Below are positions 1 through 27,209 of a DNA stretch of 27,476 bases, piece after piece. The DNA comes from a virus (Duplodnaviria > Heunggongvirae > Uroviricota > Caudoviricetes). Below the pieces are notes generated by a model. That model had not been told where the DNA came from. It searched no databases and was given only the letters and a program-made list of their open reading frames with translations. The translations under genes were made by a program, and so were the position numbers. The stretch lies in the IMG/VR virus record IMGVR_UViG_3300028962_000002; one strand, 5' to 3'. Numbering within the stretch: the stretch's first letter is position 1; every line of letters begins with the position of its first letter.

Positions 1-1062
1 CGCCCGCGCTTCATCGTTAACAAAATAATCATCCTTGCGCAGATTCCAGATGTCGTCTGCTTTCTTAAACGCAGCCTCTGCCTTAATCAGCATCTCCTGC
101 GCGGTATCAGGACGACCAATATCCAGCACCGCATCCCACATGGATTTGAATGCCCGCGCTGTCCTGTCTGCCCAGGTCTCCAGCGTGCCCATGTTCTCTT
201 TCAGGCGGCGGGTCTGGTCATCAAACCCTTTCGTTGCGGCCTCGTTCGCCGCCTGCAATGCCCCGGTTTCATCGCCGGAACGCTGCAACTGAGCAACATA
301 CGCAATCTGCTCCGCCGTCACGTTATGGAACTGCTTCGCCATCGCAATCAGCCCCGACGTCGGGTCAGTGGTCAGTTTTCCGAAAGCCTCTGCAACCTTG
401 TCCACCTCCACACCGGATGCAGAAGCAAAACGCGCGACACTCTGGTTGATGGCATCAAACTGTTCACCACCACGCACACCGGCATTCACCATGGCTGCCA
501 GTGACTCACTCGCCTGGTTAAACGTCAGCCCTGCGGCCTGTCCGGCTCTGGAGAGCGTCAGCATGCGATCGGCAGTCAGTCCGGACTGATTACCGGAAAG
601 AACCAGGGTTTTATTAAACGCTGAAAGCGTGGAATCTCCCTGGTACCAGGCGTACACCAGCGCACCTGTCGCCACCGCCAGCGAGGTGACCCCGACCATC
701 GGCAGGGTGATCGCACCGGCAAGCCCCCTGAACATGGGGATCATCCCGCCGAAGGAGTCCTTCACCTGACCGCCCTGTTGCAGCAGGATCAGCCAGGGAT
801 TCTGACCACCGGCAAGCTGCGTGGCGATATCCGTAAACTGTGCGGGCAGGGTTCGCATGGCCGCTTTATACTGCCCGACGGAAATCCCTGCTTTTTGTGC
901 AGCCAGCGCCTGGTGGCTCAGCCCCTGCTCAACGACAGTTGCGGTTTTTCTGGCGTCAGTATCCAGACCTGAAAAATGACGCCTTACCCGGCTCATCTGC
1001 TCATCGAAACGGACCGCATCCAGACTCAGGTCAATAACAAGATCACCAACCGGCTGGGACAT
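1..1062 (-). CDS. H: Tail tape measure protein gpH, N-terminal part (gene runs off the window start)
   Basis: Minus-strand frame open to the window edge; ATG at 1060-1062 preceded by GGAGG; translated N-terminus MSQPVGDLVIDLSLDAVRFDEQM...GISVGQYKAAMRTLPAQFTDIATQLAGG closely matches lambda gpH; positioned after G/T as in lambda. Confidence 0.85.
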   Translation of the reverse strand, partial: MSQPVGDLVIDLSLDAVRFDEQMSRVRRHFSGLDTDARKTATVVEQGLSHQALAAQKAGISVGQYKAAMRTLPAQFTDIATQLAGGQNPWLILLQQGGQVKDSFGGMIPMFRGLAGAITLPMVGVTSLAVATGALVYAWYQGDSTLSAFNKTLVLSGNQSGLTADRMLTLSRAGQAAGLTFNQASESLAAMVNAGVRGGEQFDAINQSVARFASASGVEVDKVAEAFGKLTTDPTSGLIAMAKQFHNVTAEQIAYVAQLQRSGDETGALQAANEAATKGFDDQTRRLKENMGTLETWADRTARAFKSMWDAVLDIGRPDTAQEMLIKAEAAFKKADDIWNLRKDDYFVNDEARA

Positions 1063-16822: not shown

Positions 16823-16857
16823 GGAGTTTACTCACATCTGACAAAATCAATATAAAC

Positions 16858-16879
16858 AGCCCCTCCGGAGAGGGGCTGG
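16858..16879. terminator. Perfect 9-bp GC-rich hairpin (cagcccctc-cgga-gaggggctg), candidate terminator
   Basis: Stem-loop read directly; on the minus strand it is followed by a T-rich but interrupted tract (TTTATATTGATTTTG). Confidence 0.35.
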
Positions 16880-17178
16880 AGAGTGGCGCTATGTGCCATT
16901 GCATGGTGCCGGGTGCCTCCCGGTGAATTCAGTACCAGCACCTGAATCCGCGATTATCCCATATACCTACTCGCTGATTGCCCCTCCGCACAGGGGGATT
17001 CACCATGCCAGTTTCTTTTAACAAACTCCCCGCAAACCAGACAACAGTCAACCGCCTGAATTGTGAAGTATTTAAAAATTTCTCCCGCTAACTGATACCC
17101 GGCTAACAGTCTGGCGTTTTCTTTTTCAGCAACGGGAAAGCAACAACCACCACACCCACCAGCCGCCCATTTACCACA

Positions 17179-20430: not shown

Positions 20431-20458
20431 AAAAACAAAAACCCGCCGAAGCGGGTTA
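20431..20458 (-). terminator. Intrinsic terminator downstream of hok (minus strand)
   Basis: Hairpin cccgc-ttcg-gcggg followed on the minus strand by TTTTTGTTTTT. Confidence 0.65.
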
Positions 20459-20525
20459 AGTGCGGGTGCGTTGAGGATGCCTGCCACATCAGAGGTGGCG
20501 AGGGATTTCTCCCTCGCCTGGTCTC

Positions 20526-20681
20526 TTACTCCTCAGGTTCGTAAGCTGTGAAGACAGCGACCTCCGTCTGGCCGGTTCGGATTCGTACCTCGCAGAGGTC
20601 TTTCCTCGTTACCAGTGCCGTCACTATGACGGTTAAACAGATGACGATCAGGGCGATTAACATCGCCTTTTGCTGCTTCAT
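20526..20681 (-). CDS. hokD: Hok-family membrane toxin (type I toxin-antitoxin), HokD-like
   Basis: MKQQKAMLIALIVICLTVIVTALVTRKDLCEVRIRTGQTEVAVFTAYEPEE, 51 aa, canonical Hok sequence. Confidence 0.92.
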   Translation of the reverse strand: MKQQKAMLIALIVICLTVIVTALVTRKDLCEVRIRTGQTEVAVFTAYEPEE

Positions 20682-20738
20682 AGCCTGCTTCTCCTTGCCT
20701 TTCGGCTCGTAAGAGGCTAACCTACATGTGTCTAGCAT
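20526..20738 (-). CDS. Mok-like leader reading frame: in-frame N-terminal extension of hok (70 codons)
   Basis: MLDTCRLASYEPKGKEKQA followed by the Hok sequence, resembling the chromosomal Mok leader pattern (M-L-N-T-C-R...KEKRA-MKQ). Confidence 0.6.
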   Translation of the reverse strand: MLDTCRLASYEPKGKEKQAMKQQKAMLIALIVICLTVIVTALVTRKDLCEVRIRTGQTEVAVFTAYEPEE

Positions 20739-21355
20739 GAAATTGGCCTCAGATTAATGTTAAGCGTCTTGCAGGACGCGTAATGTTAACTGGGGCTTTT
20801 CTCTATCTGCCTTTGGTGTTCATGCCCGAGGCAGATAGCCTCAAGCACCCGCAGCCATTCTACTTAACTACCGTTACCTCGCCAATATGAAATCAGTCAG
20901 AAAGGCGATCCATAAGAACAATAGCAAGACAATAAATCGCCATTACAGCCGTAATAGCCAGCGCACATTTGAGAACCAGCACCACAACCTCCTGTATTGG
21001 ACGTAGACCAGTCCTGATGAATATGAGGCTGTCTCGTCAGTGATTCAATACAACTATTGGGTATAGTTTCTCTGATTTTTTCTGTGGAAATGGGGCACAA
21101 CCACTAGTCACCACCAGCACTTCTTTTAATACGCAAAGTCCGACACAAGCTAACCTTCTAGTCCGCTTTGAGCGAAAAACAGCCATAATTTAGTGCCACG
21201 TATATAATGATAGAGCTATTCAAGCTAGCAATTCACATGTAAAAATTCAGAGGGTAGAAGCACATAGTTATAAATGTTGGCTCCATCGACAAATTGCGGT
21301 CTCAAGTACATTTATTAATGTTGCCCCCGCATTAACAAATCATCAAGGTGACGAC

Positions 21356-23143
21356 ATGGACGATATTAATATCAGCCTCGACGAACTTAACACTATTGAT
21401 TTATCCCCCTTAATCCAGAGTAAGCTGCCAGTTACCTGCTTTGATATCACAAAGTATCTTTCTAGCCTAGGTGATGGAAGAGCGGAGATAAGACTGCTAA
21501 CCCATATTTGCGGTTTTCACTTTCGTCCCGAAAATCCACAGGTACCATTTGGTCCGTGCTTTCAAAGCAGCCAAGGTAGATCTGCAATTCCGGATGACAT
21601 TAACGGGTTGTCGCTGGAGGTACTTTCTCAATTTTGCCCGACGATAGAGCTACCCGAACTTCAAGCTCGTATTGCTGATACACTTTGGGTTCGTAAAATT
21701 GGTGGAATCCGTTTTCCTTTGCTGGCAGTCCGTGCTTATTATGCGTCCAGTATAGCTATTATGACATCGCAAGGGACGTGGGTTAGTGCTTTAGAACGCC
21801 TAGAGCGTGCGCTTAGGCTGTGTTGTTTTTTTCGAAAGAATACTGATTTCAGGGATGAATTTGATCAGCTTTCGGCACATCTACTAGCAGAGTATGAACG
21901 TACCAGAGAACAAGGCGATTCACCTTATCCGCTGCGACTCCTGCAACTCGATATCGACTGTAAAGTGAGTGAGCCATCTTTTATTGCCCAGGAACTCCTG
22001 TTTCTGACAAAAAACTATCTGGCTCAAAAATTATTTTCATTTGCCGTCGATGCCTGTAAAACCGCAATCACGATTGCGAATAGGTGCTGTGACAGAGATA
22101 CACAGTTTGAATTCTGGCGGCTTCTTGCCGATACACATCTGGAAGAGTCAAAATTCCAAGATGGCGGTATGATTTCGGCAGCCTGCATGCAGAATGCTAT
22201 TGAAGCACTGGCTAATATTCCAGGAACCCGAATAGAACGTCTTGCGCTGTATGAAGAAATGCGTGATTACCAAATCGAATCCCGTCACCAGATGTCTATC
22301 CTTCAGTCTCCCCCTCAAGATATTAGTGAGATTGTCCATCAAGCCAAGAGTCGGGTAGTCGGAAGAGATATGTTTGATATGGTTTTCAGACTTGCGATGC
22401 TGGTCTGTCGGCCAACCAGCATTGAGAGACTTAAGGCTCAAGCAATAGAACAAAAGGCCAACAGCATAGCTTGGATGTTTGGATCAACACATATTGATCA
22501 TGAGGGAATGACACTTGCTCGCATACCCGCAGGATTGGGGATTGATGATGCAAATGGGGCAGTTATTTGGCCCATAATGATGACGAGAATGCGTATCGAC
22601 CATGAGTTGGCAGTAGCTGGGCAAATTATTCCTGCTACAGATGAGATCACAATGAAATATCCAATCTCGGAGGCGTTTTTTCGCGATATGTTCATCAATC
22701 ATCCCTTCATCCCGTTTGGGCATGAAGAGTTTTTCATCAAGGGTATGGTTTGCGGTTTCAATGGAGATTTTATGACGGCATGCCACGTGTTGATTCCCCA
22801 GATCGAAAATAGTCTGAGATATGTGGCTAAAATTAAAGGTGAGGAACCATCGCAGCTTCACGGGGACGGTTCGCAAGAGCGAAATGGACTCAAGGGATTA
22901 CTAGATAATCCACTGATTATTGAAGCTTTCGGCGTAGACATAATTGGCAATCTTCAGGCCTTACTGGTAGATAAAATCTATGGTGATTTACGAAATCAAC
23001 TAGCTCACGGATATGTGCCTGCCGGTTACTACAATCAACCTCCCTGCATTTTTGCATGGTGGCTTGTATTGCACATTCTAATGAACCCTACGGCGAGATA
23101 CTGGCAAGCCACTTATGGCCAAGAGAGTGAGGCTCAGACTTAA
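21356..23143 (+). CDS. Hypothetical 595-aa protein with C-terminal Rx4H (HEPN-like) motif; candidate defence/abortive-infection effector
   Basis: AAGGTGA RBS before the ATG; long clean frame; lower GC than the phage backbone; only plus-strand gene in a minus-strand block; C-terminal ...IYGDLRNQLAHGYVP contains R-N-x-x-A-H. Confidence 0.85.
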   Translation: MDDINISLDELNTIDLSPLIQSKLPVTCFDITKYLSSLGDGRAEIRLLTHICGFHFRPENPQVPFGPCFQSSQGRSAIPDDINGLSLEVLSQFCPTIELPELQARIADTLWVRKIGGIRFPLLAVRAYYASSIAIMTSQGTWVSALERLERALRLCCFFRKNTDFRDEFDQLSAHLLAEYERTREQGDSPYPLRLLQLDIDCKVSEPSFIAQELLFLTKNYLAQKLFSFAVDACKTAITIANRCCDRDTQFEFWRLLADTHLEESKFQDGGMISAACMQNAIEALANIPGTRIERLALYEEMRDYQIESRHQMSILQSPPQDISEIVHQAKSRVVGRDMFDMVFRLAMLVCRPTSIERLKAQAIEQKANSIAWMFGSTHIDHEGMTLARIPAGLGIDDANGAVIWPIMMTRMRIDHELAVAGQIIPATDEITMKYPISEAFFRDMFINHPFIPFGHEEFFIKGMVCGFNGDFMTACHVLIPQIENSLRYVAKIKGEEPSQLHGDGSQERNGLKGLLDNPLIIEAFGVDIIGNLQALLVDKIYGDLRNQLAHGYVPAGYYNQPPCIFAWWLVLHILMNPTARYWQATYGQESEAQT

Positions 23144-27151: not shown

Positions 27152-27209
27152 TTTCTGGTGACGTTTGGCGGTATCAGTTTTACTCCGTGACTGCTCTGCC
27201 GCCGTTTTT
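27152..27209 (+). ncRNA. dicF: DicF small RNA (53-nt core plus U-tail)
   Basis: tttctggtgacgtttggcggtatcagttttactccgtgactgctctgccgcc followed by gttttt, matching the E. coli DicF sequence as recalled; ends in a hairpin plus U-run. Confidence 0.88.

What the first reader, a model, noticed from the sequence alone, without database searches (positions are those of the whole stretch)
20431..20738. Apparently intact mok/hok type I toxin locus inside the prophage
The Hok sequence is canonical, with an in-frame Mok-like 19-codon leader and an intrinsic terminator downstream. Chromosomal hok loci are often inactivated, so an intact copy next to the candidate defence gene suggests a toxin/defence cluster. 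The antisense Sok RNA and its promoter cannot be located with confidence by eye and should overlap 20690-20780 on the plus strand.
Basis: partly seen in the sequence, partly recalled or inferred. Interest (0 to 1): 0.45.

Follow-up and report, generated by a model that had tools for sequence, protein, structure and literature searches.

The report
Complete hokD-type hok/Sok toxin–antitoxin module
This is an ordinary, complete copy of the well-known hok/Sok small-toxin/antisense-RNA module that most E. coli strains carry in lambda-like prophages; the laboratory strain K-12 happens to keep only a truncated version of it.

Summary
On the minus strand, 20526..20681 encodes a 51-aa Hok identical to E. 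coli K-12 HokD. An in-frame 19-codon mok extension starts at 20738, and an intrinsic terminator lies at 20457..20440.

The 112-nt leader carries the canonical regulatory elements. In silico, the 5' end (tac) pairs with fbi at 20476..20464. After removal of the 3' end, it pairs with ucb and a mok-SD/dcb target hairpin forms. These pairings hold in 84 distinct relatives (95.8% of cells paired, against about 40% when partners are slid).

The antisense Sok gene is on the plus strand: -35 TTGCCT at 20695-20700, -10 TAACCT at 20718-20723, and an RNA of about 77 nt at 20730..20806. It aligns end to end with the annotated K-12 sokC.

The locus is not rare. At least 3,928 of 5,426 complete E. coli genomes and 79 phage records hold most of it. 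The close relative hokW-sokW of phage Sp5 has been characterised experimentally. K-12 hokD is the exception, being truncated by relBE. Linkage to the neighbouring PDC-S39 candidate defence gene occurs in only 149 genomes. Verdict: already known, low interest.

The parts
20857..20885 (-). hok/mok mRNA promoter: -35 TTGGCG (20885..20880), 17-nt spacer, -10 TAGAAT (20862..20857)
   Evidence: Consensus scan, 9 of 12 matches. The -10 aligns with the -10 region of the R1-like and hokC loci, and +1 falls 7 nt downstream. This is a sequence-level inference; no transcript data were available.
20433..20850 (-). Full-length hok mRNA (about 418 nt), from +1 G20850 to the terminator T-run
   Evidence: The Rfam RF01794 match starts exactly at 20850. 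blastn homology to relatives in other genera typically spans nt 1..387, that is +1 to the end of fbi. The 5' end aligns with the R1 +1 sequence GGCGCUUGAGG.
20839..20850 (-). tac (translational activator element), GGGUGCUUGAGG, mRNA nt 1-12
   Evidence: The MFE fold of the full-length RNA pairs nt 1-12 with nt 375-387. After 3' truncation, nt 1-8 pair with nt 53-59. Diversity is zero among 68 close relatives.
20792..20798 (-). ucb (upstream complementary box / anti-SD of mok), AAGCCCC, mRNA nt 53-59
   Evidence: It pairs with tac in the truncated fold, and this helix is 99.5% paired in 84 sequences. In the full-length fold, most of this segment (nt 53 and 55-57) pairs with the mok SD region. 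The roles follow the model in PMC9841398.
20713..20750 (-). Sok-target hairpin of the processed mRNA: mok SD GAGG (20750..20747), mok AUG (20738..20736), loop CUAGACA, dcb GCCUC (20717..20713)
   Evidence: Folds alone at -12.4 kcal/mol, z -2.8. It forms in the truncated mRNA folds. Seven of its 14 pairs show changes on both sides across relatives.
20526..20738 (-). mok reading frame (70 codons), in frame with hok; the first 19 codons form the leader
   Evidence: ORF list. The same in-frame layout appears in the annotated K-12 mokC/hokC and in 74 of 85 relatives.
20691..20696 (-). hok Shine-Dalgarno AAGGAG, 9 nt upstream of the hok AUG
   Evidence: Read directly from the sequence. It is conserved in all relatives. 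Identity with K-12 hokD begins here.
20526..20681 (-). hok CDS, 51 aa, MKQQKAMLIALIVICLTVIVTALVTRKDLCEVRIRTGQTEVAVFTAYEPEE
   Evidence: Pfam PF01848, 81.6 bits. Exact sequence named HokD/HOKD_ECOLI. 47 of 51 residues match the 933W-type HokW copy.
20497..20518 (-). GC-rich 3'-UTR hairpin GGCGAGGGAGAAAUCCCUCGCC just after the stop codon
   Evidence: Present in the full-length and truncated folds. 97.1% paired, with 4 pairs changed on both sides. It is the site of IS186/IS421 insertions in K-12 hokC and in L013/L014; it is uninterrupted here.
20464..20476 (-). fbi (fold-back inhibition element), CCUCAACGCACCC, mRNA nt 375-387
   Evidence: Pairs with tac in the MFE fold. The helix is 99.2% paired in 84 sequences, with G-C to G-U and one G-C to A-U change.
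20431..20457 (-). Intrinsic terminator of the hok mRNA: stem AACCCGC/GCGGGTT, loop TTCG, then a T-run
   Evidence: Terminator scan and fold.
20695..20723 (+). Sok promoter: -35 TTGCCT (20695-20700), 17-nt spacer, -10 TAACCT (20718-20723)
   Evidence: Aligns hexamer for hexamer with TTGCGC-17-TATCCT in the R1-like copy and with the region upstream of the annotated K-12 sokC/sokB; that the R1 hexamers are the experimentally defined Sok promoter is from my memory of the R1 literature. The TTGCCT...TAACCT pair, with a spacer of the same length, is kept in the large majority of the 85 relatives. The simple scan missed it because the -10 matches only 3 of 6 positions.
20730..20806 (+). Sok antisense RNA, about 77 nt: 5' single-stranded tail over the mok AUG, a long hairpin, and a U-rich 3' end (CUUUUCUCUAU)
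   Evidence: Both ends align with the annotated K-12 sokC (16952..17010). Folds at -30.5 kcal/mol, z -5.25. It is near-identical to the 933W-type Sok region, whose RNA was detected and shown to be antitoxic in Sp5 (PMC8621323).

Best explanation
[quoted passage not shown] It is carried as a compact cassette of about 440 bp (roughly 20433-20870) in the early-right 'moron' region of a Qin-like lambdoid prophage. It is the untruncated form of the locus that K-12 retains only as hokD (relF).

The mechanism below is inferred from sequence, folds and homology to R1 hok/sok and Sp5 hokW-sokW.

1. A stable mRNA of about 418 nt is made from the promoter at 20885..20857. Its 5' end (tac) pairs with fbi near the 3' end. 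This locks the RNA in a form in which ucb occludes the mok Shine-Dalgarno, so neither ribosomes nor Sok can act on it.
2. Slow 3' trimming removes fbi. tac then pairs with ucb, and the mok SD/dcb hairpin forms, exposing the mok start.
3. The unstable Sok RNA (about 77 nt), made constitutively from the opposite strand, pairs with this hairpin across the mok start. That blocks mok translation, and therefore the coupled hok translation, and triggers duplex cleavage.
4. When Sok synthesis stops, the mRNA pool is translated. Possible triggers are prophage induction, loss of the element, or transcription shut-off by an infecting phage. The 51-aa Hok then inserts into the inner membrane and collapses it.

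The most likely biological role in this context is phage-centred: helping lysis or release at induction, as shown for hokW-sokW, and/or stabilising the prophage.
For: Identity and context:
- Pfam HOK_GEF 81.6 bits.
- Rfam RF01794 116 bits.
- The Hok sequence is exactly HokD.
- PGAP annotates the 99.8%-identical locus as hokD between a DUF4209 gene and rem/ydfU/ydfT.

Intactness:
- K-12 hokD matches only from the hok SD downstream, with relE/relB lying upstream. The window's upstream half instead aligns with hokC/sokC and an R1-like locus.
- There is no IS element, unlike K-12 hokA/C/E and L013/L014.

RNA switch:
- The MFE fold of the full-length RNA pairs nt 1-12 with nt 375-387.
- Truncation to 360-370 nt gives the tac/ucb stem and the SDmok/dcb hairpin.
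- On 84 distinct relatives both structures are 95.8% paired, against 32-43% for slid partners. They show 45 and 38 pairs with changes on both sides, and 0 of 500 shuffles reach these values.
- Homology in other genera ends at nt 387, the end of fbi.

Sok:
- The promoter and both RNA ends align with annotated sokC/sokB/sokE and R1.
- The promoter hexamers are conserved.
- The hairpin has z -5.25.

Function of close relatives:
- The HokD CDS is toxic on overexpression (preprint 10.1101/2025.08.07.668861).
- The 933W-type copy is 47/51 identical in Hok and has a nearly identical Sok. For hokW-sokW of Sp5, experiments showed a toxin/antitoxin pair, a Sok RNA lost on induction, HokW in the inner membrane, and a roughly two-fold effect on phage release (PMC8621323).
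- The same locus sits in viable phages such as HannyBb (99.1%), mEp460, Evi and Tritos.
Against: - Nothing here shows expression. The promoters, the RNA ends and the 3' processing site are all inferred.
- The Sok -10 (TAACCT) is a weak match and failed the consensus scan.
[quoted passage not shown] An intact sequence therefore does not guarantee activity.
- HokD-type toxins carry Tyr at position 47, where HokB has the Cys needed for its disulfide bond. Full toxicity may depend on TadA A-to-I editing.
- The structures tested were derived from the window sequence itself, which favours them over the slid controls.
- tac/fbi and tac/ucb are almost invariant, so they offer little covariation.
- NCBIfam Hok models score below their curated cutoffs (48.5 against 73).
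Confidence: 0.88

Rival explanations
1. The locus is structurally intact but physiologically silent. It would be a selfish or relic cassette that is transcribed and fully repressed. It would produce no post-segregational killing, no phage exclusion and no lysis phenotype, and would persist by hitch-hiking in prophages.
For: [quoted passage not shown] Genomes carry up to 10 copies, with a median of 2 places, which would be tolerable only if repression is tight. Tyr47 in place of Cys may limit toxicity unless the mRNA is edited.
Against: Every regulatory element is preserved, with compensatory changes across genera. Diversity is zero in tac and very low in fbi and the CDS among 68 close relatives. 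This pattern of purifying selection is not expected for a silent relic. The 94%-identical hokW-sokW has measurable phenotypes. The HokD CDS is toxic when expressed.
Confidence: 0.25
2. hok/Sok and the adjacent PDC-S39 (DUF7380/DUF4209, HEPN-type) gene form one functional anti-phage defence cluster. In this reading Hok acts as an abortive-infection effector.
For: The neighbour at 21356..23143 (+) matches PADLOC PDC-S39 at E 8e-103. DUF4209 is classed as a HEPN domain (PMC3710099). R1 hok/sok on a high-copy plasmid reduced T4 plating (cited in PMC8621323). Prophage moron slots often collect defence genes (general knowledge).
Against: The two genes are divergently transcribed and about 470 bp apart. 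They are adjacent in only 149 genomes, whereas at least 3,928 carry the full hok locus. In most genomes homology stops between window positions 20870 and 21175, so hok is a self-contained cassette with changing neighbours. K-12 has relBE in that slot, and HannyBb has other genes there. The survey preprint found no enrichment of hok next to defence systems.
Confidence: 0.07

Closest known systems
hokW-sokW of Stx2 prophage Sp5 / 933W-type phages (Takada et al. 2021, PMC8621323)
   Same: - Same cassette in the same kind of element, a lambdoid prophage upstream of the Q antiterminator region.
- Hok is 51 aa and 47/51 identical; the mRNA is about 91% identical (382 of 420 aligned columns).
- The Sok region has the same length and the same extended hairpin.
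[quoted passage not shown]
   Different: - Four C-terminal Hok residues differ (TAYEPEE against VDYESEK).
- The Sok 5' tail/target segment differs (GUCUAGCAUGAAAUUGG against GUUCAGCAUGGAUUGAG), so the two Sok RNAs may not cross-react.
- The 933W-type copy has a different 3' terminator and different flanks.
- No experiment exists for this exact variant.
hokD (relF) of E. coli K-12 Qin prophage
   Same: From the hok SD through the CDS, 3' UTR, fbi and terminator, the alignment shows only two differences outside the CDS, and a K-12-derived strain (EPI300) matches this part at 99.2%. The genomic position is the same, next to rem and ydfU.
   Different: K-12 lacks everything upstream of window position 20695: the hok promoter, tac, ucb, the mok start, the Sok -10 and the Sok RNA. 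relB-relE lie there instead. The window holds the complete form.
hok/sok of plasmid R1 (parB), the mechanistic paradigm
   Same: The element order is the same: promoter, tac, ucb, Sok target/mok start, dcb, hok SD, hok, fbi, terminator. The Sok promoter sits in the same place, overlapping the hok SD. The switch between predicted full-length and truncated structures is also the same (model in PMC9841398).
   Different: - The paper on Sp5 gives HokW 44% identity to R1 Hok; the window protein was not compared directly.
- mok is in frame with hok here but in another frame in R1. This is deduced from the codon assignments in PMC9841398.
- Sok is about 77 nt, carrying an 18-nt GC-rich hairpin-tip insertion that is absent from R1 and from SokC/B/E (57-60 nt as annotated in K-12).
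- R1 has a longer 5' hairpin loop.
- The location is a prophage rather than a plasmid.
hokC/sokC (gef) of E. coli K-12
   Same: It has an in-frame mokC, a 19-codon leader, the same tac sequence GGGUGCUUGAGG, and an annotated SokC that aligns end to end with the window's plus strand.
   Different: K-12 hokC has IS186 inserted 20 bp after the stop codon, which separates fbi from the mRNA. The window's 3' UTR is uninterrupted.

Membership tests
[quoted passage not shown] | Small (about 50 aa) Hok/Gef membrane toxin ORF | tested here: met
   PF01848 HOK_GEF scores 81.6 bits against a cutoff of 22. The sequence is exactly HokD. NCBIfam Hok models hit but fall below their cutoffs.
[quoted passage not shown] | An overlapping mok leader frame that starts upstream of hok, with its initiation region inside the antisense target | tested here: met
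   The ATG lies at 20738, 57 nt upstream of the hok ATG, with SD GAGG at 20750..20747. The ATG column is conserved in 82 of 85 relatives. The Sok 5' tail covers it.
[quoted passage not shown] | A cis-encoded antisense Sok RNA gene with its own promoter on the opposite strand of the leader | tested here: met
   The sequence on the plus strand is homologous to annotated sokC, sokB and sokE and to the R1 Sok region. The -35/-10 pair and a terminator-like hairpin with a U-rich tail are conserved. This holds at sequence level only; transcription was not observed.
[quoted passage not shown] | Long-range tac/fbi pairing of the mRNA 5' and 3' ends | tested here: met
   The MFE fold pairs nt 1-12 with nt 375-387. 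The helix is 99.2% paired in 84 sequences, with G-U and one A-U replacement.
[quoted passage not shown] | [quoted passage not shown] | tested here: met
   Folds of the RNA cut to 360-370 nt show this structure. The tac/ucb stem is 99.5% paired, and the target hairpin has 7 pairs changed on both sides. This is in silico only.
[quoted passage not shown] | Toxicity of Hok; antitoxic action of Sok; 3' processing; RNase III cleavage of the duplex | not testable with these tools
   Only literature on relatives is available. HokD CDS toxicity is reported in the preprint. hokW-sokW genetics are reported in PMC8621323.
K-12-type truncated hokD (relF downstream of relBE) | hok CDS preceded directly by relE, with no hok promoter, leader, mok start or Sok gene | tested here: not met
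   The window has the full leader and the Sok gene. Homology to K-12 starts only at 20695 and runs downstream.
Conserved two-gene defence cluster (hok + PDC-S39) | Recurrent physical linkage of the two genes across genomes | tested here: not met
   The two are adjacent in 149 of 5,426 genomes, while the full hok locus is in at least 3,928. The neighbours differ in K-12, HannyBb, Stx phages and other loci.

The most novel reading that the evidence does not exclude
Among hokD-type cassettes that are otherwise at least 90% identical, the only strongly variable segment is the 12 nt at 20731-20742. This is the Sok 5' recognition tail, equivalent to the loop and mok start of the target hairpin. It could reflect diversifying selection that keeps up to ten co-resident prophage hok/Sok modules mutually orthogonal. 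Each prophage's Sok would then silence only its own hok, so each module could report induction or loss of its own element. The 18-nt hairpin-tip extension of this lineage's Sok and the conserved 30-aa membrane ORF just upstream (20893..20985) might be lineage-specific additions to the module.
Probability: 0.2. Interest if true: 0.35.

Novelty: already known. Interest (0 to 1): 0.1.

Why it matters
It matters little as a discovery. The family, its RNA switch, its enrichment in prophages and a near-identical prophage copy (hokW-sokW) have all been published. The exact proteins occur on more than 1000 contigs.

The practical value lies in annotation.
- Automatic pipelines label only the 51-aa CDS as 'hokD'. 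They leave out mok, the leader and Sok.
- The Rfam 'sok' model reports the mRNA strand rather than the antitoxin strand.
- Readers used to K-12 may wrongly assume hokD loci are truncated.

Tried and rejected
- The sigma-70 consensus scan found the hok promoter and terminator but no plus-strand promoter. The Sok promoter had to be placed by homology, because its -10 TAACCT matches only 3 of 6 positions.
- The Rfam 'sok' hit lies on the minus strand. I rejected reading it as the antitoxin. It begins at the mRNA +1 and ends at the hok AUG, and the annotated K-12 sokC lies on the opposite strand from hokC.
- PADLOC gives no hit for Hok/Mok.
- The NCBIfam Hok models score below their cutoffs.
- I tested whether the TACG at codon 47 sits in a tRNA-like hairpin, which would fit TadA editing. 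The 25-nt local fold shows none (z 0.26), so this is left as a literature-based remark.
- I tested the 'toxin/defence cluster' idea by searching with a query spanning both genes. Linkage is rare, so I rejected it as the main explanation.
- The hokB row (L004) in alignment A2 was cut at the wrong coordinates and contributes little.
- I did not run protein structure prediction or the large protein-database homology searches. The exact sequences are already named, so these would add nothing.

Full report
**What is in the sequence.** All features lie on the minus strand.
- ORF 20526..20738 encodes 70 aa. Its last 51 codons (20526..20681) are the Hok ORF MKQQKAMLIALIVICLTVIVTALVTRKDLCEVRIRTGQTEVAVFTAYEPEE.
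- Pfam HOK_GEF matches at 81.6 bits against a cutoff of 22.
- The 51-aa sequence is exactly the protein that sources name HokD/HOKD_ECOLI, seen on at least 1000 contigs. The 70-aa product is also on at least 1000 contigs, under names such as 'regulatory protein MokC' and 'Hok/Gef family protein'.
- A terminator follows: a 7-bp stem at 20457..20440, then TTTTGTTTTT.
- Rfam RF01794 matches 20850..20676 at 116 bits against a gathering score of 59, E 4.5e-26.

**The unit is larger than the reported interval.**
- A promoter-like site, TTGGCG-17-TAGAAT, lies at 20885..20857. It places +1 at G20850, exactly where the Rfam match begins and where the R1 mRNA 5' end GGCGCUUGAGG aligns.
- The mRNA is thus about 418 nt (20850..~20433), with a 112-nt leader ahead of the mok AUG.
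- blastn of this RNA against 152 related loci shows that homology in other Escherichia species, Kluyvera, Citrobacter, Erwinia and Pseudocitrobacter typically runs from nt 1 to nt 387.
- These two limits are the predicted +1 and the end of the fbi element.

**Context.**
- A 99.8-99.9% identical stretch in E. coli 118UI is annotated, in order: ydfA, a dicA-like repressor, cro-like, YdaT, DUF977, DUF4209 protein, hokD, rem, ydfU, ydfT (Q antiterminator), cspF, cspB, and lysis genes.
- The window also holds DicF at 27153..27204.
- This is a Qin-like lambdoid prophage.
- In K-12 Qin, hokD sits at the same place next to rem and ydfU, but directly downstream of relB-relE.
- K-12 matches the window only from the hok Shine-Dalgarno (window 20695) downstream. 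Everything upstream is unrelated.
- The window therefore holds the untruncated form of hokD.
- It also lacks the IS elements that disrupt K-12 hokA, hokC and hokE and loci L013/L014.
- The single difference from strain 118UI is a 3'-UTR base that also varies in other copies.

**Regulatory RNA elements.** The accepted model (PMC9841398) runs as follows.
- The full-length mRNA is closed by tac/fbi pairing, and ucb hides the mok SD.
- After 3' trimming, tac pairs with ucb. The mok SD then pairs with dcb in a hairpin that is both translatable and the Sok target.

The window behaves in this way in silico.
- The MFE fold of the 418-nt RNA pairs nt 1-12 (20850..20839) with nt 375-387 (20476..20464).
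- Cutting the RNA to 360-370 nt makes nt 1-8 pair with nt 53-59 (ucb, 20798..20792).
- The same cut creates the hairpin at nt 101-138 (20750..20713). It contains the mok SD GAGG, the mok AUG and the loop CUAGACA.

I projected both structures onto an alignment of 85 loci, 84 of them distinct, drawn from phages, IMG/VR contigs and genomes of several genera.
- In each structure 95.8% of cells form standard pairs, against 32-43% when partners are slid by 1-3 columns.
- 45 and 38 pairs carry changes on both sides, and 0 of 500 shuffles reach these values.
- The tac/fbi helix is 99.2% paired and the tac/ucb helix 99.5%.
- The target hairpin has 7 pairs with double changes.

Two caveats apply. The structures came from the window sequence itself, and tac/fbi and tac/ucb are nearly invariant, so they show conservation rather than covariation.

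**Sok.**
- The Rfam family called 'sok' is modelled on the mRNA strand, so its minus-strand hit marks the leader, not the antitoxin. The true Sok gene lies on the plus strand.
- The window's plus strand aligns with the annotated K-12 sokC, sokB and sokE RNAs and with the R1 Sok region.
- This gives -35 TTGCCT (20695-20700), a 17-nt spacer, -10 TAACCT (20718-20723), +1 at G20730 and a 3' end near 20806 (…CUUUUCUCUAU).
- The hexamers correspond position for position to the TTGCGC-17-TATCCT of the R1-like copy, the promoter defined experimentally in R1 as I recall it. They are kept, with a spacer of the same length, in the large majority of the 85 relatives.
- The 77-nt RNA folds into a long hairpin (-30.5 kcal/mol, z -5.25) preceded by a tail that covers the mok AUG.
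- Compared with the annotated SokC/B/E (57-60 nt), the hairpin tip carries an 18-nt GC-rich insertion. SokC/B/E and the R1-like Sok region lack this insertion. Most prophage hokD-type copies, including the 933W-type phage, share it.
The promoter is inside it, and the RNA runs about 26 nt further.

**How common it is.**
- A 461-nt query covering the whole module finds matches in 4,726 of 5,426 complete E. coli genomes.
- At least 80% of the query is covered in 3,928 of them, with a median of 2 and up to 10 places per genome.
- The K-12-type match, limited to the 3' 58% of the query, appears only in the lower part of the ranked hit list.
- 79 phage records carry the module. They include HannyBb (99.1%), mEp460, Evi, Tritos, many Stx phages ('MokW', 'gef: phage maintenance protein') and a 'phage Rac' record with mok and hok annotated.
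- A survey preprint reports Hok in about 80% of Enterobacteriaceae genomes, with enrichment in prophages (10.1101/2025.08.07.668861).

**Experimental knowledge on close relatives.**
- The 933W-type copy (L011) is 47/51 identical in Hok and about 91% identical over the mRNA. Its Sok region differs mainly in the 5' tail.
- For hokW-sokW of Sp5, Takada et al. showed that HokW is toxic and goes to the inner membrane.
[quoted passage not shown] This neutralisation depends partly on RNase III and Hfq.
- sokW disappears on RecA-dependent prophage induction, and deleting the locus delays growth arrest and halves phage release (PMC8621323).
- The HokD CDS served as a toxic control in the preprint.
- The same preprint summarises earlier work in which intact chromosomal hokA, hokB and hokC loci did not give post-segregational killing. 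An intact sequence is therefore not proof of a phenotype.

**The 'toxin/defence cluster' idea.**
- The neighbour at 21356..23143 (+) matches PADLOC candidate PDC-S39 (E 8e-103) and Pfam DUF7380 and DUF4209. DUF4209 is classed as a HEPN domain (PMC3710099).
- However, the two genes are divergent and about 470 bp apart.
- A query spanning both is covered by at least 80% in only 149 genomes. In most genomes homology ends between window positions 20870 and 21175.
- Upstream neighbours differ in K-12, HannyBb, Stx phages, plasmids and other chromosomes.
- hok/Sok is thus a self-contained cassette of about 440 bp whose left border lies within its own promoter region. The neighbour is variable cargo in the same moron slot.

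**Details worth recording.**
- mok is in frame with hok here, in K-12 mokC and in 74 of 85 relatives. It lies in the +1 frame in 5 relatives and is a short 19-codon leader in 3. This fits the published view that mok translation matters, not its product.
- Among 68 copies at least 90% identical to the window, nucleotide diversity is zero in tac and near zero in most of the CDS. It peaks sharply (0.23) at mRNA nt 109-120, window 20742..20731.
- That segment is the Sok 5' tail and the target loop around the mok AUG. The peak could reflect diversification of antisense specificity among co-resident copies. I did not test this further.

**Verdict.** It is, however, a textbook hok/Sok module of the hokD/hokW lineage in its usual prophage setting. 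It is already annotated as hokD by PGAP and has been characterised in a near-identical relative. Novelty: already known. Interest: low.

Noticed in passing
window 20893..20985 (-): A 30-aa hydrophobic ORF (MVLVLKCALAITAVMAIYCLAIVLMDRLSD) lies just upstream of the hok promoter. It has a GTG start preceded by AGGAGG. Frame and stop are kept in 38 related loci, with mostly conservative substitutions and one in-frame codon loss. The first GTG is sometimes replaced, so the second GTG may be the true start. It is named only 'hypothetical protein' in a few genomes, has no Pfam, PADLOC or NCBIfam hit, and PGAP does not annotate it in strain 118UI.
   Followed up: partly
window 21356..23143 (+): A 595-aa protein matches PADLOC candidate defence family PDC-S39 (E 8e-103) and Pfam DUF7380 and DUF4209. 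DUF4209 is classed as HEPN-type according to PMC3710099. It is transcribed divergently from hok and lies next to hok in only 149 of 5,426 E. coli genomes.
   Followed up: partly
window 16848..17037 (-) and 27153..27204 (+): Rfam hits above the gathering scores: STnc100 sRNA (132 bits) and DicF (72.5 bits). Both are typical of Qin-like prophages.
   Followed up: no
window 20676..20850 (-): The Rfam family RF01794, named 'sok antitoxin', is modelled on the hok-mRNA leader strand: it begins at the mRNA +1 and ends at the hok AUG. Its hit strand is therefore opposite to the real Sok gene, which can mislead automatic annotation.
   Followed up: yes
window 20731..20742 (Sok 5' tail / mok AUG and target loop): Among 68 loci at least 90% identical to the window, this 12-nt bin has by far the highest nucleotide diversity (0.23, against 0-0.11 elsewhere). 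tac has none. This may reflect diversification of antisense specificity between co-resident copies.
   Followed up: partly
window 20497..20518 (-); L003, L013, L014: The GC-rich hairpin just after the hok stop codon is where IS186/IS421 elements are inserted in K-12 hokC, a chromosomal copy (L013) and a plasmid copy (L014). This looks like a recurrent way of separating fbi from the mRNA. The window copy is uninterrupted.
   Followed up: partly
window 20541..20543 (-), hok codon 47 (TAC, within GCUUACGAA): The codon contains the TACG motif. The preprint 10.1101/2025.08.07.668861 states that hokC/D/E mRNAs are A-to-I edited by TadA at the position corresponding to HokB Cys46, which would recode Tyr to Cys. 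A local fold of 25 nt gives no tRNA-like hairpin.
   Followed up: partly
L101, L105, L133 (genome-contig hits): Loci 90-96% identical to the window's hok mRNA sit on contigs labelled as a Veillonella parvula MAG, Xanthomonas pisi (431 bp) and Acinetobacter idrijaensis (275 bp). These are most likely contamination or mis-binning rather than real host range.
   Followed up: no
L121-L143 (Photorhabdus spp.): Single Photorhabdus genomes hold several mok/hok relatives (61-72% protein identity). Their DNA homology to the window starts only at about mRNA nt 93-100, so their 5' leaders (the tac/ucb region) are not recognisably similar at blastn level.
   Followed up: no
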